In this document: positions 2,831 through 55,089 of the stretch, one piece after another
Layout of the letters: each line of letters begins with the position of its first letter
How positions within the stretch are numbered: position 1 is the first letter of the stretch
DNA from: Chiloscyllium plagiosum
Taxonomy: Eukaryota
Direction of reading: 5' to 3'
Assembly: GCF_004010195.1 (NCBI RefSeq)
Contig: NC_057718.1
Coordinates: 54,980,934-55,036,987 of the forward strand
DNA length: 56,054 nt
Position numbers and translations under genes: made by a program
The notes under the pieces: generated by a model
Database searches by the model: none
What the model was told of the DNA's origin: nothing
Seen by the model: the letters and a program-made list of their open reading frames with translations, nothing else

Positions 2831-3360
2831 GTCATTCAAACTGTGACATATATTTGAAATTATAACCACAATGAAATCGTAAAGTGGTTTCACACGTTGA
2901 ATTCTTCAAATAATCCAGCTGAATGATGTATATTCATTATTTCACACATTATGGGTTACATGAGGGACATTGTAAACTTGTTTTCATACATTCGACATCT
3001 CAAGACTATTAATTTGTTTGCAAAATAAGATAGCTTACAACAATGAATAAACCTAAATGAACAGAGAGAGAACAATGGTTTCCAGGCATTGTCTGCCTTA
3101 ACGAGATTGTGTCAGATTCACAATGACAAATTGGTGTAACTGGAGAACTGACCCAATCTTGTGAAAGTGCCATCTGAACTTCGGTATTCTTCATTTAGTC
3201 ATTTGTTCATTTGCTAATCACAAAATCCTAACAAGCACCATATGTTAATTAGGGCTGGAAATGAATGTCATCATCTGTGTCATTTCAAGCATGTATTGAT
3301 CAGTTGGCACAGAAAATAGCCTTTTCCATCCTAACTCTCCAAAGCTCATCCACTATCTAC

Positions 3361-4429
3361 AAAGTTTACTCAGGTTGTAAGTTTGCTCACTGAGCTAGTT
3401 GGTTTATTTTCAGACATTTCGTCACCATACTAGGTAACATCAGTAGTGAGCCTCCGGTGAAGCACTGGTATTCTGTTCCGGTTTCTATTTATGTGTCTTG
3501 GTTTCTTAAGGTAGATGATATCATTTCTGATTCTTTTTTTAAGAGGTTGGTAAATAGGGTCCATTCTGGTTTGAATGCCAGGGCTTTAGGAATTCCCATG
3601 CGCTTCTCTGTTTGGCCTGTCCTAGGATAAACATGTTGTCCCAGTTGAAGTGGTATCCTTCTTCGTCTGTATGTAAGGATACCAGTGATAGTGGGTCATG
3701 TCTTTTGGTGGCTAGTTGGTGTTCCGTGTATCCTGGTGGCTAGTTTTCTGCTTGTCTGTCCAATGTAGTGTTTGTGACAGTCCTTGCGTGGTATTTTGTA
3801 AATGGCATTCGATGTTGGTATAGGGTTCTTTAGGTTCATCAGTTCTGTTTCAGTGTGTTGGTAGATTTGTGGGCTACCATGATGCCAAGGGGTCGCAGTA
3901 GTCTGGTAATCATCTCTGAGATGTTTTTGATGTATGGTCGTGTAGCTAGAGTTTCTGGGCATGTTGTGTCTACTTGTTTGAGTTTGTTGTTTAAGAATTG
4001 GCAGACTGTGTTTATCAGACAGCCGTTCTTCATGAATATGCTGTATAGGTGTTCTTCTGCTGCTTGTAGTTCCTGGGTGCTGCAGTGTGTTGCGGCCCAT
4101 TTAAATAATGTCCTGATGCAGCTCCATTTGTGGGTGTTAGAATGATTGCATCTATAGATAAGTATCTGGTCTGTGTGTGTTGCTTTCCTGTAGATGTTGG
4201 TCTGCAGTTCTCCATTAACTGTTCATTCCACTGTGACATTTAGGAAGGGGAGTCTGTTGTTGTTCTCCCCTTTTGTGAAATTTATGCCAGTAAGGATTTT
4301 GTTGATGATGTTGTAGGTGTCGTCTAATTTGTTCCATTTTTGAGATGACAAAGATGTCATCCACATAGCGGACCACTCCTCCAACTCCTCCCCTCCAGCT
4401 CCCCAACGATCCAACCCAAACTATGGGTC
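3361..4429 (-). mobile_element. Penelope-like retroelement (RT C-half + GIY-YIG endonuclease + 3' pLTR), 5'-truncated with a short 5' inversion
   Basis: Minus-strand frames give RYVDDIFVI and RLPFL (RT) and AIYKIP..C.KHYIGQTSRKLATRIH (GIY-YIG). Frameshifted. Degenerate hammerhead motif at about 3412-3448. Confidence 0.9.
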
Positions 4430-6464: not shown

Positions 6465-6605
6465 TCCACCTATCACCATCCACCTACATTTCCCCCAGTC
6501 CCACCCCCCTCCCTCTATTTATTTCTGAGCTCCCTTCCCCCTCTCCAATCCTGACCTGAAACATTGGCTTTCCTGCTCCTCCGATGCTGTCTGACCTGCT
6601 GCGTT
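6465..6605 (+). mobile_element. Penelope-like pLTR fragment with the hammerhead core largely deleted
   Basis: CCTGA..CCTGAAACATTGGCTTTCCTGCTCCTCCGATGCTG matches the PLE 3' end seen at 17863-18024 and 52391-52486. Confidence 0.6.
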
Positions 6606-9230: not shown

Positions 9231-9455
9231 CATGATATACAAGTGCCGGTGTTGGACTGGGTTGGACAAGGTCAAAAATCACAAAACATCATGTTGCAGT
9301 CAAATAGGTTGATTTCCAAGCTTTCCGAGCCCCATCCTTTCTTCGGGTGTTAGTGTTTAAAAACACAAACATTTAGAACCCCGCTCTGAAAGCTGAATGG
9401 GTTTTCAAATAAACTTGTTGGATTATACCTGTTGGTGTTGTGTGATTTTTGATCA
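9231..9455. mobile_element. Degenerate palindromic Penelope-derived short element
   Basis: GTGCCGGTGTTGGACTGGG..AAAAATCAC arm and the inverse GGTGTTGTGTGATTTTT arm; same family as 13446-13666. Confidence 0.7.
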
Positions 9456-10670: not shown

Positions 10671-12438
10671 CAAAAGTTGACCTACTCTTAGGAAATAAGG
10701 CAGGGCAGGTGACTAAGGTGTAAGTGAGGGAGCACTTTGGGGGCCAGCGACCATATTTCTATTAGATTTAAAATAGTGATGGAAAAGGATAGACCAGATC
10801 TAAAAGTTGAAGTTCTAAATTGGAGAAAGGCCAATTTTGGCGGTATAAGACAAGCATTTTCAAAAGCTGATTGGGGCAGATGTTCGCAGGTAAAGGGACA
10901 GCTGGAAAATGGGAAGATTTCAGAAATGAGATAATGAGAATCCAGAGAAAGTATACTCCTGTTAGGGTGAAAGGAAAGGCTGGTAGGTGTAGGGAATGCT
11001 GGATGACTAAAGAAATTGAGGGTTTGGTTAAGAAAAAGAAGGAAACATATGTCAGGTATAGACAGGATGGATTGAGTGAATCTTTAGAAGAGTACAAACG
11101 CAGTGGAAGTATACTTAAGAGGAAAATCAGGAGGGCAAAAGGGGGACATGAGATAGCTTTGGCAAATAGAATTAAGGAGAACCCAAAGGGTTTTTACAAA
11201 TACATTAAGGACAAAAGAGTAACTAGGGAGAGAATATGGCCTCTCAAAGATCAGCAAGGTGGCCTTTGTGTGGAGCTGCAGAAAATAGGGGAGACACTAA
11301 ACAAGTATTTTGCATCAGTATTTACTGTGGAAAAGGATATAGAAGATATAGAATGTAGGGAAATAAATAGTGACACCTAGCAAAATGTCCAGATTACAGA
11401 AGAGGAAGTGCTGGATGTCTTGAAATGGTTAAAGGTGGATGAATCCCCAGGACCTGACCAGGTATAGCCAAGAACTCTGTGGGAAGATAGAGAAGTAATT
11501 GCTGGGCCTCTTGCTGAGATATTTATATCATCGATAGTCACAGGTGAGGTGCCGGAAGACTGGAAGTTGGCTAACGTGGTGCCACTGTTTAAGAAGGGTG
11601 GTAAGGACAAGCCAAGGAACTATAGACCAGTGAGCCTGACGTTGATGGTGGGCAAGTTGTTGGAGGGAATCCTAAGGGACAGGATGTACATGTATTTGGA
11701 AAGTCAAGGACTTATTAGGGATAGTCAACATGGCTTTGTGGGTGGGAAATCATGTCTCACAAACTTGATTGAGTTTTTTGAAGAAGTAGCAAAGGGGACT
11801 GATGAGGGCAGAGTGGTAGATGTGATTATATGGACTTCAGTAAGGCGTTCGACAAGGTTCCCCATGAGAGACTGGTTAGCAAGGTTAGATGTCACACAAC
11901 ACAATGAGAACTAGCCATTTGGATACAGAACTGGCTCAAAGGTAGAAGATAGAGGGTGGTGGTGGAGGGTTGTTCTTCAGGCTGGAGGCCTGTGACCAGT
12001 GGAGTGCCACAAGGATTGGGCTGGGTCCTCTACTTTTTGTCATTTACATAAATGATTTGGATGCGAGCATAAGTGGTACAGTTAGTAAGTTTTCAGATGA
12101 CACCAAAATTGGAGGTGTAGTGGACAGCGAAGAAGGTTACCTCAGATTACAACAGGATCTTGACCAGATGGGCCAATGGGCTGAGATGTGGTAGATGGAG
12201 TTTAATTCAGGTATATGCGAGATGCTGCATTTTAGGAAAGCAAATCTTAGCAGGTAAGATCCTAGGGAGTGTTGCTGAACAAAAAAACCTTGGAATGCAG
12301 ATTCATAGCTCCTTGAAAGTGTAGTTGCAGGTAGATAGGATAATGAAGAAGACATTAGGTATGCTTTCTTTTATTGGTCAGAGTATTGAGTACAGGAATT
12401 GGGAGGTCATGTTGCGGCTGTACAGAACATTGGTTCGG
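10671..12438 (+). mobile_element. CR1/HER1-type LINE ORF2 fragment (endonuclease end + RT), pseudogenised
   Basis: GASDH, NWRKANF, PEDWKLANVVPLFKKG, NYRPVSLT, QHGF..GKSCLTNLIEFFE, LGPLLFVIYINDLD and KFSDDTK motifs across several frames, with stops and frameshifts. Confidence 0.93.
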
Positions 12439-13445
12439 TAAAAAAAATGAAAAAAAATGTTTCAGTTTGATTCCACTGTAAAAATATGTTCTACATAGCG
12501 ATGGAGTGGGGAAGTTTAATGGTTGCAAGATGTTTGCTCTAACCCCCTGGGTTATGAAGATATTAAAGTTTTCAGAGTGTGGATTAACTTTAACAACATG
12601 CAGCCTGTATCTGCATTGCTGACTTCTACTCTCAATGCAGGTTCTTGCTAGTTATGAAGACAGAATAGAATGTTAAAGGGTGGAAATTATTAACACATAT
12701 ATACATCAATTTTAGAAATGGATAATTTCAGGGAGCTGCAGCTTTAGCAGAGGTTTACATTCAAGTTATGTTACAGGTTTGAAAGCTCCCTAATAATGTT
12801 TGTCTTTTGATTATCATTTTGTGGTACAATGAAATATATGTTTATACAGGTTTTTTTTAGCACTGCTGCTCTAAAACACGTTAATATCAATAACAAATTA
12901 ACAAGCTTTGGCATTCAGAATTACTGTGTTCAGCCAAAGGCTTAGCTATGCTAAATTCCAGAGTTTAGTTCTTTTATTTCGTGATTATCACTCATTGTTT
13001 TGAGCATGCTTCACTTGCTGTAGTCATCATTCTATGCTGTATATATCAGCAAAGCAAACACATTTTGTTTATTTAATCAATGTTTTTTAAGCTCACAAAT
13101 AGTTTTTGAGTAACACAAATGAGTTAATTACAGGATCCAAAGATTAATTTATGAACAAATGTCTCATTTCAATATATCAATAGGCTACTACAACTTGATG
13201 CACACTATTTAAAAATAGCATTTTCAACAAATATTTAATGTCCATCAACACTTATGTGAATTGCAGAAACAAATGTGTTTTTCATTACATTTAAAATTTC
13301 TCAGTGAAGAAAACACCTTTGCTTTGCAACTTTTCCTTTCCTATCAGTTTAAAACATACACTCAGTTCAAAGGTCTTTTGTGATGAGTTTGCTTATTTCC
13401 TTTTCCTACTCATCAAATCCAATCATGCGAACACTGTGAACAATG

Positions 13446-13666
13446 ATTTGGAGGTGCCGGTGTTGGACTGGGGTGTACAAAATTGAAAATCACACAACAC
13501 CAGGTTATAGTCCAACAGGTTTATTTGGAAGCACTGGATTTTGGAATGCTGCTCCTTCACCACGTGGTTGTGCTACCCACAACCACCTGATGAAGGAGCA
13601 CCGCTCCAAAAGCTAGTGCTTCCAAATAAACCTGTTGGACTATAACCTGGTGTTGTGTTCTTTTTA
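13446..13666. mobile_element. Palindromic Penelope-derived short element with hammerhead motifs and 13-bp TSD
   Basis: Inverted arms around about 13573. TSD ACTGTGAACAATG at 13433-13445 and 13667-13679. CAC-CTGATGA-AGGAGC..GCTCC-(A)AAAGCTA-GTG at 13584-13618. Confidence 0.85.
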
Positions 13667-15576
13667 ACTGTGAACAATGTTTTCTTTTGCATATGGAAAC
13701 AATATCAAGTACTCACAAATCAAGAATGACATTGACCAGATGCATTCAGGGCTCATCTGATTGCCCAGATTATGCATTTCCATGAATTGCAGGAAAACCC
13801 CGGCTGCTTTCTTGACAACTTTGAGCAAGAACTTCTGGAATATTTCATTATTGTCACAATTTGAACAGTTTGTTGCTGTGCACTAGAGGGATTGGGTTGG
13901 TTGTTTTGCACAACACTTTAACAATAAGACCTTGATCCCATCTGTTTGGGCTGGATTCAAAATGAGTTTCAGGAATTTGACAGATTTGCAGTGCAGAGCA
14001 ATGAGGTAATGTACTCTATCAGCCAATCTGAGCTAAATGGAGAGGTGAAGTTGAATCTTGCAGCATTTTATGAAACGTGATGAAAATATACCCGTAACCA
14101 TTGAACCTAAATTAAACAAATGTAGTACATACTGCTTTGTCTAAAAATTTGTTAGTCAACTGTTGGTGTGAAATTAAATGCAGCAACAAAATCTATAATG
14201 TACATAATAGTCTCATTTTTCAATCTATTCTACAAAGCCAAGTCGTATTAATTGTGCAAAATCACCAGTGTCACTGTAGTGCAACTGCAGCATGGAAAAA
14301 TGAGGCAGGGTTTAAAGTACCAGCAACTCATCATTTTCAGGATTTAAAGTATTAGATACTCTTTGTTTTCCCATTGAATTGGAAGGTACTTTGACAAGTT
14401 AATCTGGGTGCATATCATACAGAATTCTTCTGGCATTAGGGTAAAGTTATTTGAACAGTAGACATCAGCCTTTAAATAGTGGTGAAAATGGGTGTAGAAT
14501 CTACCAAGATAATTATAGTATTTCTGTTCCCTCTTATGTATATCTCTTGCAGTATGAGAACATCCTGGAAGAAGAGATGCAGGAAGTCATCATCAACCCA
14601 TAAGGCTGTCCAGCTTTAAACTCATCCACTGATCCTTGCAGGCGATGCTGCGGGAGATGTCACTCTTGATTCGTGGGGTGGGGGGGGTGGCACAGAGGTG
14701 GTAGGTGACCATGCTGCAGAGTTGTTGTTAACAATTCTTCCTTTTTTATTTGGAGCTGACAGGAAATGCAATTTATGCACGAGTCACATCATTGCTCTGC
14801 CCTACAGCCTCACCCACCATCTTAAAAGCAGTGCTGCCTTTCTCCAGTGATGATGCACTGCTGCACTGGTGCAACTATATCCTCATTTCAGTGCCATTCT
14901 TTGTCACTGAAGGATATGAAGTCTGACAATATTGATCCCCTCACCAGATGACATTGTCACTGCAATAACCTTCTCAAGAATGTTGGCCTTCTATCAGCGA
15001 ATTCCACTGACAGCACTTCATTTAAGCCCCACCTTCTGCTCCCCTCCAAACCTGATGGCATCATTTCTTCACATGGCTTCACACTGTGGCTGTTAGCTAA
15101 TTCACATCATCACTCAGTTGCTGTTCAGAGTTTGTTTTCTTTGAGTTGAAGAGTTTCTGAATCTCTATAGATCACTGGTAAACTTGGGAAAAAAAGAGAA
15201 AAATAGCTGATGATGGCCTGGTTGACTATTTTAATTTCTGAGTGTGGTGCTGGAAAAGCAAAGCAGGTCAGCTTGGAAACTGTTGTGACCCCTTGGTGAG
15301 CAATGTGGCAGTAGGGTAAGACAAGAAAAAGCAAGGTGAGCCATTGATCCATTGGATTCAGTTTTAGCTTATAATTCCACTTGGAATCTGAACCCACATT
15401 TGGAAGCCGTGAGCTGCAGAAACAGGGAGAAGCAATTTAAACAATGTTCACACTTAGGCTTCTGGTGATCTACAATTCCTGCTCTGTACAAGCAACAGAT
15501 GAAAGGATGAATCCCCCAATAAATCTTCCAACCTTGTTACTATACTGAACACCATTGACAAATGCAATATCTACAT

Positions 15577-15806
15577 GCTGTGATTCTGTTCGCCGAGCTG
15601 GAAGTTTTTGTTGCAAACGTTTCGTCCCCTGTCTAGGTGACTATAAATGCCGGAGGAAACACCACAGAAGCGCTTCACAGGAGGCTCCCAAGCACTGAGG
15701 ATGTCACCTTGACAGGGGACGAAACATTTGCAACAAAAACTTCCAGCTCGGCGAACAGAACCACAGCAACAAGCACCCGAGCTACAAATCTTCTCACAAA
15801 CTTTGA
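15577..15806 (+). mobile_element. Penelope-derived short element (pLTR with partial inverted copy), 13-bp TSD, hammerhead motif
   Basis: TSD GCAATATCTACAT at 15564-15576 and 15807-15819. 15577-15641 is an inverted copy of about 15703-15768. CTGAGGA-TGTCACCTTGACAGGGGAC-GAAAC at 15695-15725. Confidence 0.85.
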
Positions 15807-17639: not shown

Positions 17640-18505
17640 CAATAACTTGCTGAATGATACCCAGTTTCGGTTCTTCCAGAGTCACTCATCTCCTGACCTC
17701 ATTATATTCTTGGTTCAAGCATGAAAAAGAAGCTGAATTCCAGAGGTGAGGTGAGAGTGACAGCTCTTGACATCAAGACTGCATTCGACCGAGTGTGGCA
17801 TCAAGGAGTCCTGGTTGGACTCATACCTAGCACGTAGGAAGATGGTTGTGTTGTTGGAGGTCAGAGTCTAGATTAGAATGGTGCTGGAAAAACATAGCAG
17901 GTCAGGTACCATCCTAGGAGCAGGAAAATCGATGTTTTGGGAAAAAGCCTTTCATCAGGAATGTTTGATTGCTTCCTGATGAAGGGCTTTTGCCCAAAAC
18001 GTCAATTTTCCTGCTCCTTGGATGTCAGTCAAGAAAGTTGCTCTGTTTTGGATGGTGTCAAACACGTTGAGTATTGTTGGAGCTGCATCCATCCAGGCAT
18101 TCATAAATATCCTTCCCTCCACCACCAATGTTCAGTTACAGCTGTACTGTCTACAAAATGCACTGTAGAAATTCACAAAGGATCCTCGGACAGCCCTTCC
18201 AAACCAATGATAACTTCCATCTCCAAGGACAAGGGCATCAATACATGGGCACATCACCACCTGCAGGTTCCTCTTCAAGCTGTTCACCAATCTGACTTGG
18301 AAATATATTGCCACTCCTTCACTGTCACTGGGTCAAAATTCATGAATTCCTTCCCAAAAGGCATTGTGGGTCAATCTACAGCAAGTGAAGTACAACAAGT
18401 CAAGAAGGCAGCTCATCATCACCTTCTCAAAGGGCAACTGATGACAGGCAATAAATGCTAGCCAGCCAGAGACACCTGCATCCCAAGAATGAATAAAAAA
18501 AGGAA
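17640..18505 (+). mobile_element. CR1-like LINE fragments interrupted by a Penelope-derived hairpin
   Basis: RT segment (ALDIKTAFDRVWHQG) at about 17760-17810 and a 3' end GGCAATAAATGCTAGCC...GAATGAATAAAAAAA. Confidence 0.7.
17863..18024. mobile_element. Palindromic Penelope-derived short element with hammerhead motifs on both strands
   Basis: Minus arm ends ...AAAAGCCTTTCATCAGGAAT; plus arm TTC-CTGATGA-AGGGCTTTTGCCC-(A)AAACGTC at 17973-18003. Confidence 0.8.
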
Positions 18506-19965: not shown

Positions 19966-20869
19966 TTGGGAGTGGGAAGGAAGCCAAAGGGAAAAGGAGT
20001 GAGCAAACAGCAGCAGGGAGGACAATCCCCTGCAGCACCGGGCACACCAGAGACTGCAGCAGCAGCAGCCTCGCCTGAATCCCGCAGGGACCTGACAGAC
20101 TCACAGGAATTGGCAGCAGCGATGGAAAGACTTACCTTGAAGTTGGGGCTGCGATTGAGGAGATTCGTGGGGAGATTTGTGCCCAGGTCCAATCTATCGC
20201 ATCCATGCTGCAGAAGCATGAGCAGGAGATCCAGGGCCTCGGGGAGAGGCTGGAGGAAATGGAGGGTCGAACAAAGGCCTTGGAAGCTGCAATGGAATCC
20301 TCTTCCAGTCAGATCCAGGTGCTGGAGCGAGAGGTGTGGGCCTTGCGAGACCATATTGATGACCTCGAAAATCGAGGTCGGAGGATAAATCTCCGAATTG
20401 TTGGGCTCCCTGAAGATGAGGAAGGTGAGGAATGTGAGCAGCCAGTCAGCTTCTTTGAAACCTGACTGCCGAAGTTTTTGGGCCCTCACATCGAGTGCAG
20501 CAGGCTGCAGATTGAAAGGGCTTATCGGGTTACAGTGCACAGGTCATGGCGGATGCAGCACCCACGCTCAGTCCTAGTGCACTTCCATTCATATAAGGAC
20601 AAGCAAAAAGTCATAGAAGCTTCCAGATCCTTGGAAAAAGATCTGCAGGAACTGCTGTGCAAGGGGTCAAAATCTTGCTTTTCCAGGATTTCTCTGCTGC
20701 TTTAATTCGAAAGAGGAATTCCTTCGATGAAGTTAAAAAGAGGCTGAGGAACCTGAGCATCCAATACTCCATGAAATACCCCACAGTACTCCATTTCAGC
20801 CACGAAGACTCAGTTTATACATTTGACTCAGCGGATAAAGCTAAAAACTTTGTAGACATTTTAAAATAG
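19966..20869 (+). pseudogene. L1 ORF1 (coiled coil + RRM + CTD), disrupted
   Basis: DDLENRGRRINLRIVGLPE, IERAYRV and FQDFSAALIRKR motifs spread over several frames. Confidence 0.85.
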
Positions 20870-21016
20870 ACTGATTTTAAAGAAGAATACGGTTAACATT
20901 TGTTCTCTTTTCCTTCTTTCCCCTTCCTTTTTTTTATTCCTTTCTTTCTCTCTAATAATTTCTTTTTTTGGAAAGGGGGGAAAATACCTTGGAATAAGTT
21001 GTTCCTACTTTTTATA

Positions 21017-21155
21017 ATAACTGGATTTTCTGATGGGAAATTTTGTGGATGTTCTTTGTTGTCTCCCCCTTTTTTGTTTGTTCTGTATAACTAGATTTTC
21101 TGATGGGAAATTTTGTGGATGTTCTTTGTTGTCTCCCCTTTTTTGTTTGTTCTGT
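21017..21155 (+). repeat. 70-bp tandem duplication in the L1 inter-ORF spacer
   Basis: ATAACT(G/A)GATTTTCTGATGGGAAATTTTGTGGATGTTCTTTGTTGTCTCCCC... occurs at 21017 and 21087. Confidence 0.9.
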
Positions 21156-21539
21156 TTCTCTTTTAGTCACAAGTAGGGGTGACATGAAGCCAGGGATGGG
21201 ATGGCTCATGCTGACTTTGTCTTTTTTCTGTTGATTTAAGGATCATCTCCTTGTTTTTTTTCTGGCCTAAGGCTCGGGCACAGTCCAGGTTTGAAGGAGC
21301 TGTGAAAGGGGGGATGGGTAGAGTGACTGCCCCCTATGGGCAGGGGGAAGAGTCTTCTATTCAAAGTTTTATAGTTGGTTTTCTTTGTAGTTTTTTGGTA
21401 GTACTCGTTGTTTATAGTTATGATAGAGTAGTTTTTGTATATATAGTTCTTCGACTCCATGAGTCTTTACTTAAGTGTGCTTGGTGCTTTGTAAGCAGGG
21501 TTCTCCCTCCGAGGGGTTCAAGGGTCTCTGAAAGGGGAT

Positions 21540-22713
21540 ATGGCTAAATGTTTTATTAAATGGTGCACCTGGAACATTAAGGGAAGTCATTCGCCTGTTA
21601 AAAGGTAAAAAAAGTGCTTTCTAGTCTTAAGAGGGAAAGGGTTGATATCACTTTGTTGCAGGAAACCCATCTTGATGACGGGGAACACCTGCAATTACAA
21701 CAGGGGGGTTATGACCAGGAATTATTTTCATCCTTTACTACTAAGAGTAGGGGAGTGGCGGTACTTATCCTGAAAAATCTTCTGTTCACTTTATTAGAGC
21801 AGGTGAAAGATGAGCAGGGATGGTTTGTGATACTTAAAGCCCTGATACATAGGGAGGAATATGGCATTTTAAATGTCTACTGTCCTGTGGCACATCCCCT
21901 CAAATGTTTGATTACTGCTTTCTCTAAGTTGAGTGCTTTTGGAACATGGCATATTATTATAGAGGGGGATTTTAATTGTCTTTTCAATCCAACAGTGGAC
22001 AGGTTGTCTTGTGGGCCCCCAACTATTTCTTCGCAGGCCAAGCAGGCGGTTGACTTATGGGAGGAGTTGGGGAGGAGTTAGTGCCCTCTATCGCCTGCTG
22101 GGTGTCAGGGCCTGGCCTTGTGAGGTCTGGAAGCAAGAGCTAGGACTGGAGATCTCTTCTGAAACATGGGAGAACATATGGGAGAATGCTCGAAGATCTC
22201 AATTTGTAATAGGACATGCGCTACGCGGTTGAAAGTCCTGCACAGGGTTCATCTGGCACCAGACCGTCTCGTGAAGTTTAAAAAAGGGTGTGTGCCCCAA
22301 ATGTAAAATAAGTGTAGGTACTCTTACCCATTGCTTCTGGACATGCCGCAGACTCCATGTTTATTGGAGCGCTGTGGCAGGAAAGATAGGGAGGGTATTG
22401 AGGACTGAAGTCAAAGTAGACCCAATATCTCTCCTCTTAGGTCTACCAAATTTACCATCTTTAGCTGGGCATGGGAAGAAACTATTTAATATTCTTGCAT
22501 ACTGTGCACAGAACAATATTCTAATGAACTGGGTTGTCTGAGAACCCACCGGGCTTGCTGGGATGTCAGAAATTAATTATGGAGCACATTCCCTTGGATT
22601 TTTTTACAAACATGGTGCATCACACAACAGACCATTTTTATAAGACGTGGCAGCCCTACTTGAGTTATTTGGATATAGAGTTGTCAGTTATCTTAACTAG
22701 GGCATTTGTTTAA
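21540..22713 (+). pseudogene. L1 ORF2 remnant: APE endonuclease fused directly to the C-terminal zinc-knuckle region
   Basis: WNIKG, LLQETH and GDFN (APE), then after about 22075 WKQELG..WENIW and CPKC..GTLTHCFWTC. No RT motifs in between. Confidence 0.85.
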
Positions 22714-28877: not shown

Positions 28878-30372
28878 CTATAGACCAGTGAGCCTGACAA
28901 AATGGTGGGCAAGTTGTTGGAGGGAATCCTGAGGGACATGCATTTGGAAAGGCAAGGACTGATTAGGGAGAGTCCTATGGCTTTGTGCATAGGAAGTCAT
29001 GTCTCACAAACTTGATTGAGGTTTTTGAAGAAGTAACAAGGAGGATTGATGAGGTCAGAGCAGTGGGCGTGATCTGTATGGACTTCAGTAAGACATTCGA
29101 CAAGGTTCCTCATGGTCGACCAGTTAGTAAGGTTAGATCTCATGGAACACAGGGAGAACTAGCCATTTGGATACAGAACTGGGTTGAAGTTAGAAGACAG
29201 AGGGTCAGCGTGGAGATTTGCTTTTCAGACTGGAGGCCTTTGACCAGTGGTGTGCCAGAAGGATAGCTGCTGGGTTCACTGCTTTTTGTCATTTATATAA
29301 ATGATTTGAACGTGAACATAGAAGGTATGGTTAGTAAGTTTGCAGATGACACCAAAATAGAAGGTGTAGTGGACAGCAAAGAAGGTATTTCAGATTACAA
29401 TGATATCTTGATCAGATGGGCCAATGGGTTGAGGGATGGTGGATGGAAATTCATTTAGATAAATATGAGGTGCTGCATTTTGGAAAGACAAATCAGAGCA
29501 GGACTTATACACTTAATGGTAAGATCCTAGGAGTGTTGCTGAACAAAGAGATCTTGGAGTGCAAGTTCATAGTTCCTTGAAAGTGGATTCACAGGTAGAA
29601 AGGATAGTGAAGAAGACATTTGGTACACTTTCCTTTATTGATCAGAGCATTGAGGATAGGAGCTGGGAGGTCATGTTGCGGCTATACAGGACACTGGTTA
29701 GGAATATTTTGGAATATTTTGGGCAATTCTGGTCTCCCTCCTATGGAAGGATGTTATGAAACTTGAAAGGGTTCAGAAAAGATTTACAAGGATGTTGCCA
29801 GGGTTGGAGGATTTGAGCTATAGGAAGAGGCTGTATAGACTGGAGCTGTTTTACCTAGAGCATTGGAGGCTGAGGGGTGACATTATAAAGGTTTATAAAA
29901 TCGTGAGGAGCATAGAAAGGGTAAATAGACAAGGTCTATTCCCTGAATGAGAGAGTCCAGAACTAGAGGGCATAGCTTTAAGATGAGAGGGGAAAAGTTT
30001 AAAAGGGACCTAAGGGGCAACTTTTTCATGGAGAGGTGTGTGTATGGAATGTGCTGCCAGAGGAAGTGGTGGAAGGTAGTACAATTACATCATTTAAAAG
30101 GCATTTGGATGGGTATACGAATAGGAAGGGTTCAGAGGGGGCAACTTTTTCATGGAGAGGTGCGTGTATGGAATGTGCTGCCAAAGGAAGTGGTGGAAGG
30201 TAGTACAATTACATCATTTAAAAGGCATTTGGATGGGTATACGAATAGGAAGGGTTCAGAGAGACATGGGCCAAGTGCTAGCAAATGGGACTAGATTAGG
30301 TTAGAATATCAGTTGGCATGGACGAGTTGGACTGAAGGGTGTATTTCTGTGCCATACATCTCTATGACTCTA
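28878..30372 (+). mobile_element. CR1/HER1-type LINE 3' half (RT + 3' UTR), pseudogenised
   Basis: SCLTNLIEVFEE, DFSKTFDKVPH, KFADDTK and LERVQKRFTRMLPG motifs; CTCTATGACTCTA tail. Confidence 0.93.
30014..30261 (+). repeat. 124-bp tandem duplication within the CR1 copy
   Basis: GGGGCAACTTTTTCATGGAGAGG...GGGTTCAGAG repeated at 30014 and 30138, nearly identical. Confidence 0.92.
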
Positions 30373-30742: not shown

Positions 30743-30842
30743 GGCAAAAACGGAAGTTGCTGGAAAAGCTTAGCAGGTCTGGCAGCATTTGTGAAGAAAA
30801 TTCATAGTTCACATTTCGGGTCCAGTGACCCTTCCTTAGAAC
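30743..30842 (-). mobile_element. Short Penelope-derived 3' fragment with degenerate hammerhead
   Basis: Reverse complement GTT-CTAAGGA-AGGGTCACTGGACCC-GAAATGTG-AAC followed by ...GCTGCCAGACCTGCT...TTCCAGCAAC. Confidence 0.65.
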
Positions 30843-37315: not shown

Positions 37316-37320
37316 TGTTA

Positions 37321-38190
37321 ATGATTTGGCGATACCAGTGTTGGACTAGGGTGTACAAAGTTAAACATCACACAACACCAGGTTATAGTCCAGCAGGTTT
37401 ATTTGGAAGCACTAGCTTTTGGAGTGCTGCTCCTTCATCAGGTGGTTGTGGAGTGTAAGATTGTAAAACACAGAATTTATAGCAAAAGTTTACAGTGTGA
37501 TGTAACTGAAATTATATATTGAAAAAGAGCTGGATTGTTTGTTAAGTCTCTCATCTTTTAGAAAGAACATGTTGGTTTCAGTTCTTTCATATGTAAATCA
37601 CAGAGCTTTTTTAAAGTTTCATTCTCAAGTGAACTTTTAACAATCAGTGTCATGTCAGCCCAGACAATGCATTTAAGGTGTAAGCTGCCCTGTGTGAGAC
37701 TGTCTGTGCCACAATGTTTAGACTGATTCTAATCTTAAAAATGGATTTACAGAATCTTACATGGATTCGTGCAGTTTTTGAGCAAAATGAAATGTAATTC
37801 TGCCAGTATAAATTCACCCCACAAATGTGTGTGTGTGTGTGTGTGGTCGGAGCTTATGAGTGACTGTGAGAGAGTGCGTGTGTGCATGTGAGTGTATATG
37901 TGGGCATATGAGAGAGAGCTTGTGTATGACAGAAGGTCTGCATGTGCGTATGAATCTGTAGGAGTGTGTGTGTGCATGTAGGAGCTTGTGTGTGTGTCTG
38001 TGTCTGTGTGTGTCTGTGTCTGTGTGTGTGTGGAAGTGGCCGAGCTGAGGCTGATAGCCAAGTTCGGTCCCCATGGGGATGGCCTCAACCGGGACCTTGG
38101 GTTCATGTCACACTACAGGTGACTCCACTGCACTACACACAGACGCACACTCACAGACACACACACATTCTCACAGACACACACACGCTC
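37321..38190. mobile_element. Penelope-like element: minus-strand pLTR (37321-38030) plus inverted plus-strand ORF end (38031-38190)
   Basis: Same terminus as the 13446 and 44184 family. Minus hammerhead motif at about 37410-37445; CA/TG microsatellites. Plus-strand LIAKFGPHGDGLNRDLGFMSHYR* resembles a PLE GIY-YIG C-terminus. Confidence 0.82.
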
Positions 38191-43956: not shown

Positions 43957-44647
43957 AAGGACTTAAGGAGATGACTAGAGGCAGAGAATCAGTTAACTTA
44001 GTTCTCCAGAAAAATGGTGTTGTTTATTTGTAGAGACAGCAGGGTGCAACAGAGACATTCAAGATTTTCCCCCATCTTGAGGCAGGGGAATGGAGGAGTA
44101 CCAGGCTAGAATATGAAAAGGGGAGTATTGGGAAGTGGAATAGAGATTTTAGTCATGACAAACACTAAGCTAAGAAAAGAGTCATGATTTAAAAATGCTG
44201 GTGTAAGACTGGGGTCTACAAAGTTAAAAATCACACAACACCAGGTTATAGTCCAACAGGTTTAATTGGAAGCACTAGTTTTTGGAGCGCTGCTCCTTCA
44301 TCAGGTGATGAAAGAACAGCGCATCGAAAGCTTGTGCTTCCAATTAAACATGAGAGACTATAACCTGGTGTTGTGTGATTTTTAACTTTGTACACCCCAG
44401 TCTTACACCAGCATCTTCAAATCATGACTCTTAGCTTAGTGTTTGTCATGACTAAAATCTCTATTCCACTTCCCAATACTCCCCTTTTCATATTCTAGCC
44501 TGGTACTCCTCCATTCCCCTGCCTCAAGATGGGGGAAAATCTTGAATGTCTCTGTTGCACCCTGCTGTCTCTACAAATAAACCACACCATTTTTCTGGAG
44601 AACTATGTTAACTGATTCTCTCTCGCTAGTCATCTCCTTAAGTCCTT
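43957..44647. repeat. 691-bp imperfect palindrome centred on a Penelope-derived hairpin
   Basis: 43957-44303 is the reverse complement of 44306-44647 with a few mismatches and indels; 2-nt loop GG; PLE part spans about 44184-44427. Confidence 0.95.
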
Positions 44648-48271: not shown

Positions 48272-48962
48272 TAGAGTCATAGAGTCATAGAGATGTACAG
48301 NNNNNNNNNNNNNNNNNNNNNNNNNNNNNNNNNNNNNNNNNNNNNNNNNNNNNNNNNNNNNNNNNNNNNNNNNNNNNNNNNNNNNNNNNNNNNNNNNNNN
48401 NNNNNNNNNNNNNNNNNNNNNNNNNNNNNNNNNNNNNNNNNNNNNNNNNNNNNNNNNNNNNNNNNNNNNNNNNNNNNNNNNNNNNNNNNNNNNNNNNNNN
48501 NNNNNNNNNNNNNNNNNNNNNNNNNNNNNNNNNNNNNNNNNNNNNNNNNNNNNNNNNNNNNNNNNNNNNNNNNNNNNNNNNNNNNNNNNNNNNNNNNNNN
48601 NNNNNNNNNNNNNNNNNNNNNNNNNNNNNNNNNNNNNNNNNNNNNNNNNNNNNNNNNNNNNNNNNNNNNNNNNNNNNNNNNNNNNNNNNNNNNNNNNNNN
48701 NNNNNNNNNNNNNNNNNNNNNNNNNNNNNNNNNNNNNNNNNNNNNNNNNNNNNNNNNNNNNNNNNNNNNNNNNNNNNNNNNNNNNNNNNNNNNNNNNNNN
48801 CGGTTTCTTCACGACCCTGTCTGACTGAAACTCTGTCTTCAAGGAACTAGGAACCTGCACCCCAAGGTTTCCTTAATCTGGAACACTCCCCAGGACCTTC
48901 CCATTAAGTCCTGCCCTGATTTGCCTTACCAAAATGCAGTACCTCACATTTATTTAAATTAA
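48272..48962 (-). mobile_element. CR1-type LINE sequence on both sides of the 500-N gap
   Basis: Tail (TAGAGTCA)n left of the gap; minus-strand RT (VQVPSSLK..QSDRVVKK) right of the gap. Confidence 0.75.
48301..48800. other. Assembly gap (exactly 500 N)
   Basis: Run of N. Confidence 1.
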
Positions 48963-51223: not shown

Positions 51224-51370
51224 CAACTTGCTCTCCCCAGCGGATTTGAGTCTCTCCTGAATTTTGGTGGTGGTTTGGAGCATATGTTGAACCTCCTCCT
51301 GCTGTTTCAGAATCAGCTGCCTCTCCCTGTGAGCAGCCTTGTTGGCTTCTTGAAGATGCCTGATTCCAGC
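51224..51370 (-). CDS. CEP350: CEP350-like exon
   Basis: CACAG acceptor and TTG|GTTAGT donor; 49 codons AGIRHLQEANKAAHRERQLILKQQEEVQHMLQTTTKIQERLKSAGESKL, matching recalled CEP350 AEIKRLQEANKAARKERQLILKQQEE...LKSAGESKL. Confidence 0.88.
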
Positions 51371-51622: not shown

Positions 51623-52339
51623 NNNNNNNNNNNNNNNNNNNNNNNNNNNNNNNNNNNNNNNNNNNNNNNNNNNNNNNNNNNNNNNNNNNNNNNNNNNNNN
51701 NNNNNNNNNNNNNNNNNNNNNNNNNNNNNNNNNNNNNNNNNNNNNNNNNNNNNNNNNNNNNNNNNNNNNNNNNNNNNNNNNNNNNNNNNNNNNNNNNNNN
51801 NNNNNNNNNNNNNNNNNNNNNNNNNNNNNNNNNNNNNNNNNNNNNNNNNNNNNNNNNNNNNNNNNNNNNNNNNNNNNNNNNNNNNNNNNNNNNNNNNNNN
51901 NNNNNNNNNNNNNNNNNNNNNNNNNNNNNNNNNNNNNNNNNNNNNNNNNNNNNNNNNNNNNNNNNNNNNNNNNNNNNNNNNNNNNNNNNNNNNNNNNNNN
52001 NNNNNNNNNNNNNNNNNNNNNNNNNNNNNNNNNNNNNNNNNNNNNNNNNNNNNNNNNNNNNNNNNNNNNNNNNNNNNNNNNNNNNNNNNNNNNNNNNNNN
52101 NNNNNNNNNNNNNNNNNNNNNNNNNNNNNNNNNNNNNNNNNNNNNNNNNNNNNNNNNNNNNNNNNNNNNNNNNNNNNNNNNNNNNNNNNNNNNNNNNNNN
52201 NNNNNNNNNNNNNNNNNNNNNNNNNNNNNNNNNNNNNNNNNNNNNNNNNNNNNNNNNNNNNNNNNNNNNNNNNNNNNNNNNNNNNNNNNNNNNNNNNNNN
52301 NNNNNNNNNNNNNNNNNNNNNNNNNNNNNNNNNNNNNNN
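51623..52339. other. Assembly gap (717 N)
   Basis: Run of N. Confidence 1.
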
Positions 52340-52390
52340 GCTTTCGAGAATTGCACATTAGCTCTTGCTGCTGGGCAAGTTGGAAAGTGT

Positions 52391-52486
52391 TTCTGGATTA
52401 GTGGTGCTGGAAGAGCACAGCAGTTCAGGCAGCATCCAAGGAGCTTCGAAATCGACGTTTCGGGCAAAAGCCCTTCATCAGGAATA
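52391..52486 (-). mobile_element. 96-bp Penelope-derived insertion with 14-bp TSD
   Basis: TSD AAGTTGGAAAGTGT at 52377-52390 and 52487-52500; PLE 3' terminus plus hammerhead. Confidence 0.88.
52450..52485 (-). ncRNA. Minimal type-I hammerhead ribozyme motif with intact catalytic core
   Basis: AUUC-CUGAUGA-A-GGGC-UUUU-GCCC-GAAA-CG-UC-GAUU: conserved CUGANGA and GAAA boxes, 4-bp stem II, GUC cleavage triplet, short stem I. Confidence 0.75.
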
Positions 52487-52769
52487 AAGTTGGAAAGTGT
52501 GCCTGGGTTGAGTGAATACATAATCTGGCAAATCTGTAGTGGGTCCAACAGCAAATAACGTAACATTCAAAGTCTGCGTGACACTGCCTGACACTGCGTG
52601 ATTGGTAAAACCTCTGCCAACAAAAATCAGCAACTTGTTGAGACCATCACTATATTTTCTCAGTTTTGGTTTGGAACTGTGAGCTGAAGTTAAGAATTGA
52701 ACTTTGAAAAGCAACTTGTTTTAAAACAACTGAATAAGGTTCAGTCATTTATAATACCAGAGTTGATTT

Positions 52770-53360
52770 TACTCCTCTTCTTGAATAAGGGGACGACATT
52801 TGTTATCCTCCAGTCTTCTGGCACTATTCCTGTAGACAATGACAACATAAAGATCAAATCTCAAGGTTCTGCAATCTCCTCCCTGGCTTCCCAGAGAATC
52901 CTCAGATTAATCCCATCCAGCCTAGAGGCCTTATCTATTTTCGCACTGTTCCGAATTGCTAACACCTCCTTATGAACCTCAATCCCGTCTAGTCTAATAG
53001 CCTGCATCGCAGTATTCTCCTCGACAACACTATCTTTTTCCGGTGTGAATACGAACAATATTCATTTCGTGCTTCCCCATCTCCTCGGACTCCATGCACA
53101 ACATCCCACAACTATCCTTGATTGGCCCTGATCTTTCTCGTCATTCTTTTCTTCCTGATATACTTATGGAAAGCTGTATGGTTTTCCTTGATCCCATCTG
53201 CCAGTGATTTTTCATGTTTCCTCCTGGCTCTTCGTAGCTCTCTCTTTAGGTCTTTCCTCACTAACTTGTAACTCTCAAGCTCCCTAACTGAGCTTCACGT
53301 CTCAACATAAGCCTTTTCTTCCTCTTGACAAGAGATTCAACTTCTTTAGTAAACCACAGC
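52770..53360 (-). mobile_element. CR1-type LINE ORF2 internal fragment
   Basis: Minus-strand KIDKASRLDGINLRILWEAREEIAEP and upstream linker motifs as in 10871-11600. Confidence 0.82.
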
Positions 53361-53789
53361 TCCGGACACATGGTATAATGATTCTGGAATTTACAGACAA
53401 ACTTGGATAAATCTGCCCAAGTAGATCACACAGTTTCACCACTGCTGAATTAGCAACTAAACCAGAAAGAGAATGATCAGGGTTTAAGATTTTGTTAAAC
53501 AGCAAATTCTTCTAAATATTTTATAACTTTAATGCCCCTCCATGCTTGTCATACTCAATTTAGAGAAAATTTATTTCAACAAGATAATGCTTATGCTCAC
53601 AAAATTAATAAGGGTATTTTAAAAGAAAATCAGGAAATAAAAGGTTGGTGTCAGTAAAAGTGTCCACAAAGATGTTGAGCAGCCATAAAAACCCAACTAA
53701 TTCATGGAGGGACTTTGAAGAAGGAAATCTTCTGCCCATAACTAGTGTGGCATATGTGACTACAGTGTTACGGCAGCATGGATGGCATG

Positions 53790-54901: not shown

Positions 54902-55089
54902 TTTTTCTGGTGCTCCAAACAGGCCAGCTCTGCTTTGGTCTTTTCCTTCAAGACTTGTCCTCTCAGCTTGAGGAGTGACACCTGGTGCTGTGCACGCATC
55001 TCCTCCCCCTCCATGTATTGTCGCACCATCGCCATGGTGAATTTAGAGAAACTGTCTTGACCTCCTGAAAAGGGCATGCTCAAATCATG
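54902..55089 (-). CDS. CEP350: CEP350-like exon
   Basis: TGTTCAG acceptor and AA|GTGAGT donor; HDLSMPFSGGQDSFSKFTMAMVRQYMEGEEMRAQHQVSLLKLRGQVLKEKTKAELACLEHQK, matching recalled CEP350 GGQDSFSKFTMEMVRQYM..EEMRA.HQSSLL.LRE..LKEKTKAELAWLEHQKK. Confidence 0.9.

What the first reader, a model, noticed from the sequence alone, without database searches (positions are those of the whole stretch)
52377..52500. 96-bp mobile unit that is little more than an intact hammerhead ribozyme, with a perfect 14-bp TSD
Seen: a 96-bp insert between identical AAGTTGGAAAGTGT repeats. On the minus strand it begins 5 nt before CUGAUGA and has stem II GGGC/UUUU/GCCC, GAAA and a GUC site, followed by about 60 nt of Penelope-type 3' end. 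Known: PLEs carry minimal type-I hammerheads. Inference: an RNA whose 5' end came from self-cleavage would start after GUC, yet this copy keeps the whole ribozyme. Either RT stops at the stem-I boundary or a ~100-nt ribozyme RNA is itself mobilised as a SINE-like unit. It lies sense to the CEP350-like intron.
Basis: partly seen in the sequence, partly recalled or inferred. Interest (0 to 1): 0.7.

Follow-up and report, generated by a model that had tools for sequence, protein, structure and literature searches.

The report
Hammerhead-tipped mini Penelope retroelement copy
This 96-base insert is a young, cleanly inserted end-piece of a very abundant Penelope-like jumping gene; it carries the small hammerhead ribozyme motif already known from such elements, probably inactive on its own, and many of its sister copies start at the same base, which may mark where the element's RNA begins.

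Summary
In detail: 96 bp at 52391-52486, an exact 14-bp target-site duplication and a perfect minimal hammerhead core. Empty sites appear in public runs, so it is a real, young insertion. It is the tail-less end module of a huge Penelope-like (PLE) family: over 40,000 contigs laid per DNA run, and four more copies in the window. The ribozyme is not 'intact' as a monomer: stem III has no loop, stem I has two contiguous pairs, and the predicted fold hides the core. Copies leave the family mostly at 52485, 4 nt before the core, into near-random DNA (agreement 0.32-0.34, random 0.317). Related invertebrate-type families have spread 5' ends. No pile-up was listed at the cleavage site. Best reading: reverse transcriptase starts internally on uncleaved RNA and runs to its 5' end, probably the pseudo-LTR transcription start (Initiator-like; not mapped). 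A self-mobilising SINE-like ribozyme is less likely. The kind is described (Cervera 2014; Frangieh 2024), and this scan has already noted the same thing many times elsewhere in this genome.

The parts
52391..52486 (-). 96-bp insert: tail-less end module (pseudo-LTR end) of a Penelope-like element family
   Evidence: 44,141 and 40,102 contigs and 1,761 RNA reads laid, almost all on this span
52377..52390 (.). target-site duplication, copy at the element's 3' side
   Evidence: empty site skips 110 bp in run X9
52487..52500 (.). target-site duplication, copy at the element's 5' side
52482..52486 (-). 5' leader: 5' strand of weak stem I (52482-52485). A at 52485 is the family's commonest 5' end, in an Initiator-like context. 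The T at 52486 is one base beyond it.
52474..52481 (-). hammerhead core C3-A9 (CUGAUGA) plus the extra nucleotide between 9 and 10.1
   Evidence: matches the minimal-hammerhead features listed in PMC4209133
52462..52473 (-). stem II, 4 bp with G10.1-C11.1 and a UUUU loop
   Evidence: pair probability 0.91-1.0
52454..52461 (-). GAAA, loop-less palindromic stem III (ACGU, dimer-dependent) and GUC triplet; predicted cut between 52454 and 52453
   Evidence: no cleavage shown
52391..52453 (-). 63-nt 3' segment ending at the family's tail-less 3' boundary (presumed first RT start site); first 4 nt are the 3' strand of stem I
   Evidence: reads running past 52391 share a tail consensus (161 reads, agreement 0.64); one search shows two clusters of 3' ends in related families
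17867..17962 (-). older sister copy (81% identical), 5' end 4 nt before the core; one arm of a head-to-head pair
17973..18024 (+). second arm of that pair (88%), 5' end 3 nt before the core
6555..6601 (+). decayed relative with stem II deleted; preceded by about 90 nt of C/T-rich sequence that may be the parent's upstream region (not verified)
30758..30839 (-). more distant relative (67%), also starting next to its core
15244..15271 (-). 28-bp fragment of the family's 3' segment, no core
54902..55064 (-). host exon upstream of the insert (coiled-coil, CEP350-like; lead only)
51224..51370 (-). host exon downstream of the insert
   Evidence: AG/GT borders, open coiled-coil-like frame; assignment to the same gene is recalled, not tested

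Best explanation
The insert is a young retrotransposed copy of the last ~95 nt of an endonuclease-bearing Penelope-like element, and the hammerhead is a passenger. SHOWN: it is an insertion with a 14-bp duplication into a site that is empty in relatives. It belongs to a very large family whose 3' ends come with or without a tail of at least 30 nt; this copy has none. It spans the cut site, so its template was uncleaved. A large share of family copies have their 5' end at one base, A at 52485. INFERRED from the anole PLE: the element's endonuclease nicks the target and its RT starts inside the RNA at the tail-less site. That start needs RNA further downstream, which exists where the upstream pseudo-LTR joins the element body. 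[quoted passage not shown] If transcription starts in the pseudo-LTR at A(-4), each such event gives a ~95-nt (tail-less) or ~130-nt (tailed) copy that begins just before the ribozyme core, like a strong-stop cDNA. Such copies are dead on arrival. The solo ribozyme is predicted not to cut the host pre-mRNA, because it needs a second copy for stem III and its stem I is weak. My odds: PLE end module 0.9; real preferred 5' end 0.75; that end being the transcription start 0.5.
For: Empty site and TSD. Family size and tail/no-tail 3' ends. The same core pattern lies 86-107 nt behind GIY-YIG-like frames in metagenome loci (L045, L036); Pfam GIY-YIG hit 3 of 7 frames scanned, one above the cut-off. 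Stem I covaries in those families: 174 of 224 Watson-Crick pairs against a shuffled maximum of 122. Their 3' ends cluster twice: 38 of 80 at 45-70 nt and 24 of 80 at 95-115 nt after the pattern. 5' peak: 822 of 5,259 partly laid contigs (X2), 751 of 4,452 (X9) and 351 of 1,761 reads (X21) leave at 52485. Their loose ends agree at 0.32, 0.34 and 0.46, against 0.317-0.321 for random flanks and 0.55-0.82 for families with spread ends. Of the 5 listed direct opposite-strand joints, 4 have an end at 52485/52486. In the window, 3 of the 4 closer arms that reach the core position start 3-5 nt before it (2 events). The loose-end consensus begins GAGG in all three runs, which on the sense strand puts the A in a YYANWYY context; that motif occurs at 1.2% of window positions. 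Literature: internal RT start, need for downstream RNA, and unprocessed template (PMC11167929); transcription start and internal promoter inside the pseudo-LTR (PMC2377424; PMC8557442); Initiator-like motif in a rotifer pseudo-LTR (PMC3846280).
Against: No RNA 5' end was mapped. The one raw RNA run that mapped (X21) showed no place where many molecules begin or end, had reads on both strands and none in the flanks, and X22 laid 0 reads; this library type is poor for 5' ends. The laid reference itself ends at 52486, so longer copies are clipped at the same place. Contigs count unique junctions once each but collapse identical parent sequence, so they overstate the peak; the read agreement of 0.46 allows 30-70% of reads to run on into parent sequence (simulation, which assumes my reading of the tool's 'agreement'). 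360 loose-end rows were not shown. The Initiator match is post hoc and in a pyrimidine-rich region; a second family in the window has no such match at its 5' ends. Seven invertebrate-type families show no such peak (7 of 68 ends within 7 nt), so it is not a general PLE rule. No copy of this shark-type family was linked to an RT-endonuclease frame here. The anole element is a Poseidon; this family looks Neptune-like (recalled), so the mechanism is borrowed.
Confidence: 0.55

Rival explanations
1. Ordinary random 5' truncation: the copy is simply the short end of a broad truncation series of a PLE, and the stop next to the core is coincidence plus ascertainment.
For: 5' truncation is the rule for PLEs (PMC8557442), and solo minimal hammerheads were ascribed to truncated PLEs (PMC4209133). 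In the metagenome families 5' ends are spread (7 of 68 within 7 nt, 22 at 8-30, 39 beyond 30), and TSD-flanked units of 87-143 bp starting 3-6 nt before the core occur there too (L005, L037, L039; 5 hits among 128 copies). Longer copies clip at the same place in the lay.
Against: Loose ends at 52485 agree no better than random DNA in both DNA runs (0.32, 0.34), whereas spread families give 0.55-0.82, and 0.41 even when seven unrelated families are pooled. RNA read depth falls only from about 1,280 to about 820 across the unit and then collapses at 52485. Direct inversion joints sit at 52485/52486.
Confidence: 0.15
2. A SINE-like non-autonomous unit: the ~95-130-nt copies carry their own start site and internal promoter, are transcribed, and are re-mobilised by the PLE protein.
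For: Fixed 5' end, great abundance, near-identical copies (6,736 of 44,141 contigs at 99% or more over the laid part). The Penelope promoter is internal. Retrozymes are proposed as non-autonomous PLE derivatives (bioRxiv 10.64898/2026.07.22.740005). Joints that read as head-to-tail repeats of the unit are listed (table 5c).
Against: In the anole PLE the minimal template needs the first 172 nt of the ORF while RT starts at 111-118, so a copy ending at the start site lacks the needed downstream RNA. Part of the family runs on into shared upstream sequence (GAGG-led consensus). No start peak and no strand bias strong enough to suggest a discrete small RNA in X21. Solo copy, 96 nt, shorter than the 150-450-bp tandem retrozyme units (PMC7229834).
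Confidence: 0.15
3. The 5' boundary is set during integration, not by the RNA's start: RT stalls or folds back at the outer edge of stem I, or the element's endonuclease trims the intermediate at the ATT motif.
For: A at 52485 is the outermost base that can pair in stem I (A-U at 2.4-1.4). The family end begins ATT, the motif the anole endonuclease cuts most often. Head-to-head joints cluster here, and self-priming was proposed for such palindromes (PMC3846280).
Against: Stem I is predicted at probability 0.02-0.04, and RT displaces its 3' strand before reaching the 5' strand. Families with stronger stem I (median 4 contiguous pairs) show no such peak.
Confidence: 0.12
4. The copy derives from a ribozyme-processed RNA (cleaved monomer or retrozyme circle).
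For: A full catalytic core is present; PMC4209133 proposed cleavage and circularisation as the route to PLE tandems.
Against: A cleaved template would start at G52453. The copy spans the cut site unpermuted. 52453/52454 is not among the six best loose-end places of any run, and no begin/end peak was found. Ribozyme mutants of the anole PLE insert normally.
Confidence: 0.03

Closest known systems
Minimal type-I hammerheads (min-HHR) in the pseudo-LTRs of metazoan Penelope-like elements (Cervera and De la Pena 2014, PMC4209133)
   Same: Extra nucleotide between 9 and 10.1, G10.1-C11.1, palindromic 15.2-16.2 with no helix III loop, short poorly defined helix I; mostly single dispersed motifs ascribed to truncated PLEs; some opposite-strand pairs.
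   Different: Helix I here has only 2 contiguous pairs (4-5 bp described for Schistosoma) and helix II is 4 bp. The parts read report no fixed 5' boundary and no cartilaginous-fish family.
Insertion architecture of endonuclease-positive PLEs: 5' truncation, optional 30-40-bp tail, inverted 5' copy, TSD (Arkhipova 2013 PMC3846280; Craig 2021 PMC8557442)
   Same: Tail and tail-less 3' ends, head-to-head pairs, TSD.
   Different: Truncation is described as variable; here many copies share one 5' end. The TSD is 14 bp against 8-10 bp in the rotifer examples.
Poseidon of Anolis carolinensis (Frangieh 2024, PMC11167929)
   Same: Hammerhead near the element's end; two 3' ends; uncleaved RNA as template; no reads ending at the cut site.
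   Different: The mechanism was not tested for this family. Here the ATG in the core opens only 17 codons. TSS-delimited short copies are not discussed in the parts read.
Metazoan non-LTR retrozymes (PMC7229834; bioRxiv 10.64898/2026.07.22.740005)
   Same: Type-I hammerhead, no protein, PLE-derived, monomers dispersed, TSD longer than 4 bp.
   Different: Retrozymes are tandem arrays, mostly 150-450 bp per unit, processed to circles. This is a solo 96-bp unit with a minimal motif and no evidence of cleavage or circles.

Membership tests
Metazoan PLE minimal hammerhead (min-HHR) | Core CUGANGA...GAAA...UH with an extra nucleotide after A9 and G10.1-C11.1 | tested here: met
   features as listed in PMC4209133
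Metazoan PLE minimal hammerhead (min-HHR) | Palindromic 15.2-16.2, no stable helix III in the monomer | tested here: met
   A-C-G-U at 52458-52455 with no loop
Metazoan PLE minimal hammerhead (min-HHR) | Short helix I (about 4-5 bp) closing the core | tested here: inconclusive
   C-G, U-A, U.U, A-U: 2 contiguous pairs; 21 of 126 related copies have 2 or fewer; probability 0.02-0.04
Metazoan PLE minimal hammerhead (min-HHR) | Self-cleavage as dimer or with protein help | not testable with these tools
   no begin/end peak in X21, unsuitable library
Endonuclease-positive Penelope-like element (end fragment) | Insertion with target-site duplication | tested here: met
   empty site
Endonuclease-positive Penelope-like element (end fragment) | Two 3' ends (optional 30-40-bp tail) | tested here: met
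   tail consensus beyond 52391 in 161 reads at 0.64 agreement, lower in contigs (0.42, 0.37); this copy has no tail
Endonuclease-positive Penelope-like element (end fragment) | Head-to-head inverted copies in the family | tested here: met
   17867-18024; opposite-strand joints
Endonuclease-positive Penelope-like element (end fragment) | Parent with RT and GIY-YIG ORF upstream of this end | tested here: inconclusive
   not found for this family in the window, no genome held; the same core pattern follows GIY-YIG-like frames in metagenome loci of other animals
Non-LTR retrozyme | Tandem units, each with a hammerhead | tested here: not met
   solo copy; a few tandem-like joints exist elsewhere in the family
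Non-LTR retrozyme | Monomeric linear and circular RNAs made by self-cleavage | not testable with these tools
   cannot show circles
SINE (Pol III) | tRNA/5S/7SL-derived head with A and B boxes | tested here: not met
   Rfam finds no such RNA over the insert; the unit begins at the hammerhead. No dedicated A/B-box scan was run.
SINE-like self-propagating unit | Short copies give rise to further copies | not testable with these tools
   needs the genome-wide copy tree; no genome held

The most novel reading that the evidence does not exclude
Shark-type PLE families shed very large numbers of 'strong-stop' insertions: because RT starts inside the RNA at the upstream pseudo-LTR, it copies only the ~95-130 nt back to the capped 5' end. 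The shared 5' boundary of these mini-copies would then be a fossil map of the element's transcription start, and full-length mobilisation would need read-through tandems. In the bolder form, some mini-copies keep their start site, form head-to-tail dimers that complete the ribozyme, and are the seeds of retrozymes.
Probability: 0.35. Interest if true: 0.55.

Novelty: new member of a known kind. Interest (0 to 1): 0.3.

Why it matters
The single insert matters little: it is one of very many PLE end fragments, in an intron, with a ribozyme unlikely to cut alone. The family-level fixed 5' end is the useful part. If it is the transcription start, it is in vivo evidence for internal RT initiation, explains why genomes fill with solo minimal hammerheads and why PLEs need tandems, and can be tested cheaply with CAGE and one genome-wide count. 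The young copy with a known empty site is also a clean example of PLE target-site geometry.

Tried and rejected
No own genome is held, so the genome-wide 5'-end plot could not be run. Rfam found no hammerhead: 0 hits at gathering score in the window, and two chance snoRNA hits at E 1.9 and 9.4 around the insert. No RNA holder was listed for the locus, which is no evidence on expression. Run X22 laid 0 reads. Folding gave no significant stability (z -0.86 to -1.59). Pfam found nothing on the window's decayed PLE-like frames or on the host exon. tblastn with 9 metagenome PLE frames gave only two hits at E about 0.04, none near this family. An extra 5' G from cap copying, which would support a capped template, is not present in the three window arms that start near the core. 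A TSD search on ten other repeat spans found a convincing duplication only for the pair at 13450-13666. The middle host exon expected from exon phases was not found in readable sequence. Supplementary Fig. 2 of PMC11167929 gave no text; it plots genomic copy ends and might bear on whether a 5' peak is already shown. Supplements of the bioRxiv preprint are closed and could list a cartilaginous-fish family like this one. Look-up of earlier findings by sequence returned nothing.

Full report
OBSERVATION. The window holds a 96-bp insert at 52391-52486 between two identical 14-mers at 52377-52390 and 52487-52500. The repeat is exactly 14 bp; chance per pair of places is about 1e-8. Laying four public runs on 52340-52580 showed the empty site: 2 contigs of DNA run X9 skip 110 bases, and 1 contig of X2 skips 111. 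The X9 right flank differs at 5 of 94 letters, so that organism is a relative and the insertion is younger than the split. On the minus strand the insert starts 5 nt before CUGAUGA and carries one extra A, a 4-bp stem II with a UUUU loop, GAAA and C-G-U-C, then 63 nt. It is the only perfect core among 16 degenerate candidates in the window. Exon-like frames at 54902-55064 and 51224-51370 on the minus strand flank it; the Atlas names CEP350 fragments at 0.83, a lead only. That the host is a shark is recalled from its repeats and echoed by earlier notes; I did not test it.

THE RIBOZYME. The motif has every listed feature of the minimal hammerhead of metazoan PLEs: a nucleotide between 9 and 10.1, G10.1-C11.1, and palindromic 15.2-16.2 (PMC4209133, parts 1-2 of 4 read). 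That paper found no cleavage by a single motif, low cleavage by dimers, most motifs as single dispersed copies 'probably related to truncated PLEs', and some opposite-strand pairs. Here stem III has no loop. Stem II pairs with probability 0.91-1.0 but stem I with 0.02-0.04, the best fold ties up the core, and a hammerhead-like fold costs 4.3-4.7 kcal/mol. In 126 copies of related families from metagenome contigs, stem I covaries (174 of 224 Watson-Crick pairs in 56 distinct contexts; shuffled mean 98, maximum 122), so the pattern marks a real conserved structure. This copy, with 2 contiguous pairs, is among the weakest 21 of 126. 'Intact' is true of the core sequence, not of a monomeric ribozyme. 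Rfam does not see it.

THE FAMILY. BLAST of the insert on the window gave 7 further hits, five of them at E under 0.001: a head-to-head pair (17867-17962, 17973-18024), 6555-6601, 30758-30839 and 15244-15271. In the runs, 44,141 (X2) and 40,102 (X9) contigs and 1,761 RNA reads (X21) were laid, almost all on the insert; X22 laid none. At the 3' side, reads that pass 52391 share a tail consensus (161 reads, agreement 0.64), while contigs agree less (0.42, 0.37), so copies come with and without a tail and this one has none. An optional 30-40-bp tail and an inverted 5' copy are standard for PLEs (PMC8557442, passages and section 10; PMC3846280, passages; PMC8969392, passages). No ORF-bearing parent of this family was found in the window. 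A looser pattern found 123 metagenome stretches (122 loci, 128 copies read). There the same core follows GIY-YIG-like frames (Pfam GIY-YIG on 3 of 7 frames scanned, 1 above cut-off), and 3' ends cluster twice (38 and 24 of 80). PLE membership is therefore well supported by architecture but not by a direct link to an ORF.

THE 5' END. The largest group of loose ends on the element's 5' side is at 52485, 4 nt before the core: 822 of 5,259 partly laid contigs in X2, 751 of 4,452 in X9, 351 of 1,761 reads in X21 (six places shown per run, 360 rows hidden; the other listed 5'-side places, 52442 and 52444, are subfamily differences whose loose letters continue the element). Because the reference ends at 52486, longer copies clip there too, so I calibrated the agreement of the loose letters. 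Random flanks give 0.317-0.321. Seven metagenome families with spread ends give 0.55-0.82, and 0.41 when pooled. The observed 0.32 and 0.34 fit at most about 10-30% of contigs running on into shared parent sequence. The reads' 0.46 fits 30-70%. Contigs overstate unique junctions, so the truth for genomic copies is probably nearer the read figure; earlier unchecked notes on this genome give about three quarters near the core. Of 5 listed direct opposite-strand joints, 4 end at 52485/52486. In the window, the target, 17962 and 17973 arms start 5, 4 and 3 nt before the core (two events), and 6555 does not. In contrast, only 7 of 68 uncensored 5' ends in the metagenome families lie within 7 nt of the core (84 copies in 7 families after merging same-place copies; 16 censored by contig ends were dropped). 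A preferred 5' end is thus likely real and specific to this lineage. The cut site (52454/52453) is not among the listed loose-end places, and no begin/end peak was found in X21.

MECHANISM. For the anole Poseidon (PMC11167929, parts 1-2 of 4), RT starts inside the RNA at two sites that match the tail ends, needs RNA beyond them (first 172 nt of the ORF, start at 111-118), gives products whose length follows the template's 5' end, and uses uncleaved RNA; ribozyme mutants insert normally. It also predicts (my inference) that a transcript starting in the upstream pseudo-LTR offers a competent start site close to its own 5' end and yields short copies bounded by the transcription start. Penelope's start and internal promoter lie in the pseudo-LTR, 46 nt before the intron whose end abuts helix I (PMC2377424, outline and passages). 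The loose-end consensus begins GAGG in all three runs, placing A(-4) in a YYANWYY Initiator context (consensus recalled; 1.2% of window positions). Rivals: random truncation (0.15), SINE-like self-propagation (0.15; a copy ending at the RT start site lacks the downstream RNA), a boundary set by stem I or by endonuclease cutting at ATT (0.12), and a cleaved or circular template (0.03).

COMPARISON AND NOVELTY. It works like, and very probably is, a truncated end of an endonuclease-positive PLE with a minimal hammerhead. It is not a retrozyme by the tandem criterion (PMC7229834, passages; bioRxiv 10.64898/2026.07.22.740005, parts 1-3 of 5, which samples one cartilaginous fish) and not a Pol III SINE. 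TSD-flanked, core-headed units of 87-143 bp also occur in the invertebrate-type families, so the object is not unique. Eight searches found no paper on shark PLE hammerheads or on a fixed 5' boundary; the library lacks most subscription journals and Repbase/Dfam were not searchable, and two sets of supplements could not be read. The scan has noted this repeatedly: 102 of 157 notes on this genome fit 'hammerhead Penelope'. Verdict: real, a new member of a known kind; interest 0.3, resting on the testable fixed 5' end.

Noticed in passing
window 13443-13680, 44184-44425, 37320-37451, 9232-9450: A second hammerhead-bearing PLE-type family, mostly as head-to-head pairs; 5' ends at about -10, -9 and -3, and one long copy. 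The pair at 13450-13666 has a 17-bp duplication with one mismatch.
   Followed up: partly
window 37320-38120: The second family's copy appears to run about 400 nt upstream and is followed by an inverted piece that reads like the C-terminus of a PLE endonuclease (recalled): a longer truncated copy with 5' inversion.
   Followed up: partly
window 43957-44647: A 690-bp near-perfect palindrome (93%) whose centre is the inverted PLE-end pair and whose outer ~230 bp arms are not PLE end sequence; no clear TSD. Looks like fold-back duplication of flanking DNA.
   Followed up: no
window 15576-15768: A third family of inverted hammerhead-like ends (CUGAGGA core).
   Followed up: no
window 3360-4370 (minus): Decayed PLE-like ORF with YVDD and GIY-YIG-like motifs, broken by stops and frameshifts, with a degenerate hammerhead-like end; Pfam found nothing and tblastn gave E 0.044.
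   Followed up: partly
table 5c (joints 52478-52487 to 52391-52393): Five listed joints read as head-to-tail repeats of the whole short unit with 2-37 letters between (strand not given). Such dimers could complete the dimeric ribozyme and seed retrozymes.
   Followed up: no
L005, L037, L039: TSD-flanked, hammerhead-headed units of 143, 87 and 133 bp starting 3-6 nt before the core in metagenome contigs from other animals.
   Followed up: partly
window 51623-52339 and 48301-48800: Two N stretches. Exon phases (54902 ends in phase 2, 51370 starts in phase 0) imply a middle exon that was not found in readable sequence and may lie in the 717-N stretch next to the insert.
   Followed up: partly
window 20079-22081, 10871-12438, 28878-30372, 52750-53430: Ordinary LINE remnants (coiled-coil ORF1-like frame, endonuclease, RT fragments).
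   Followed up: no
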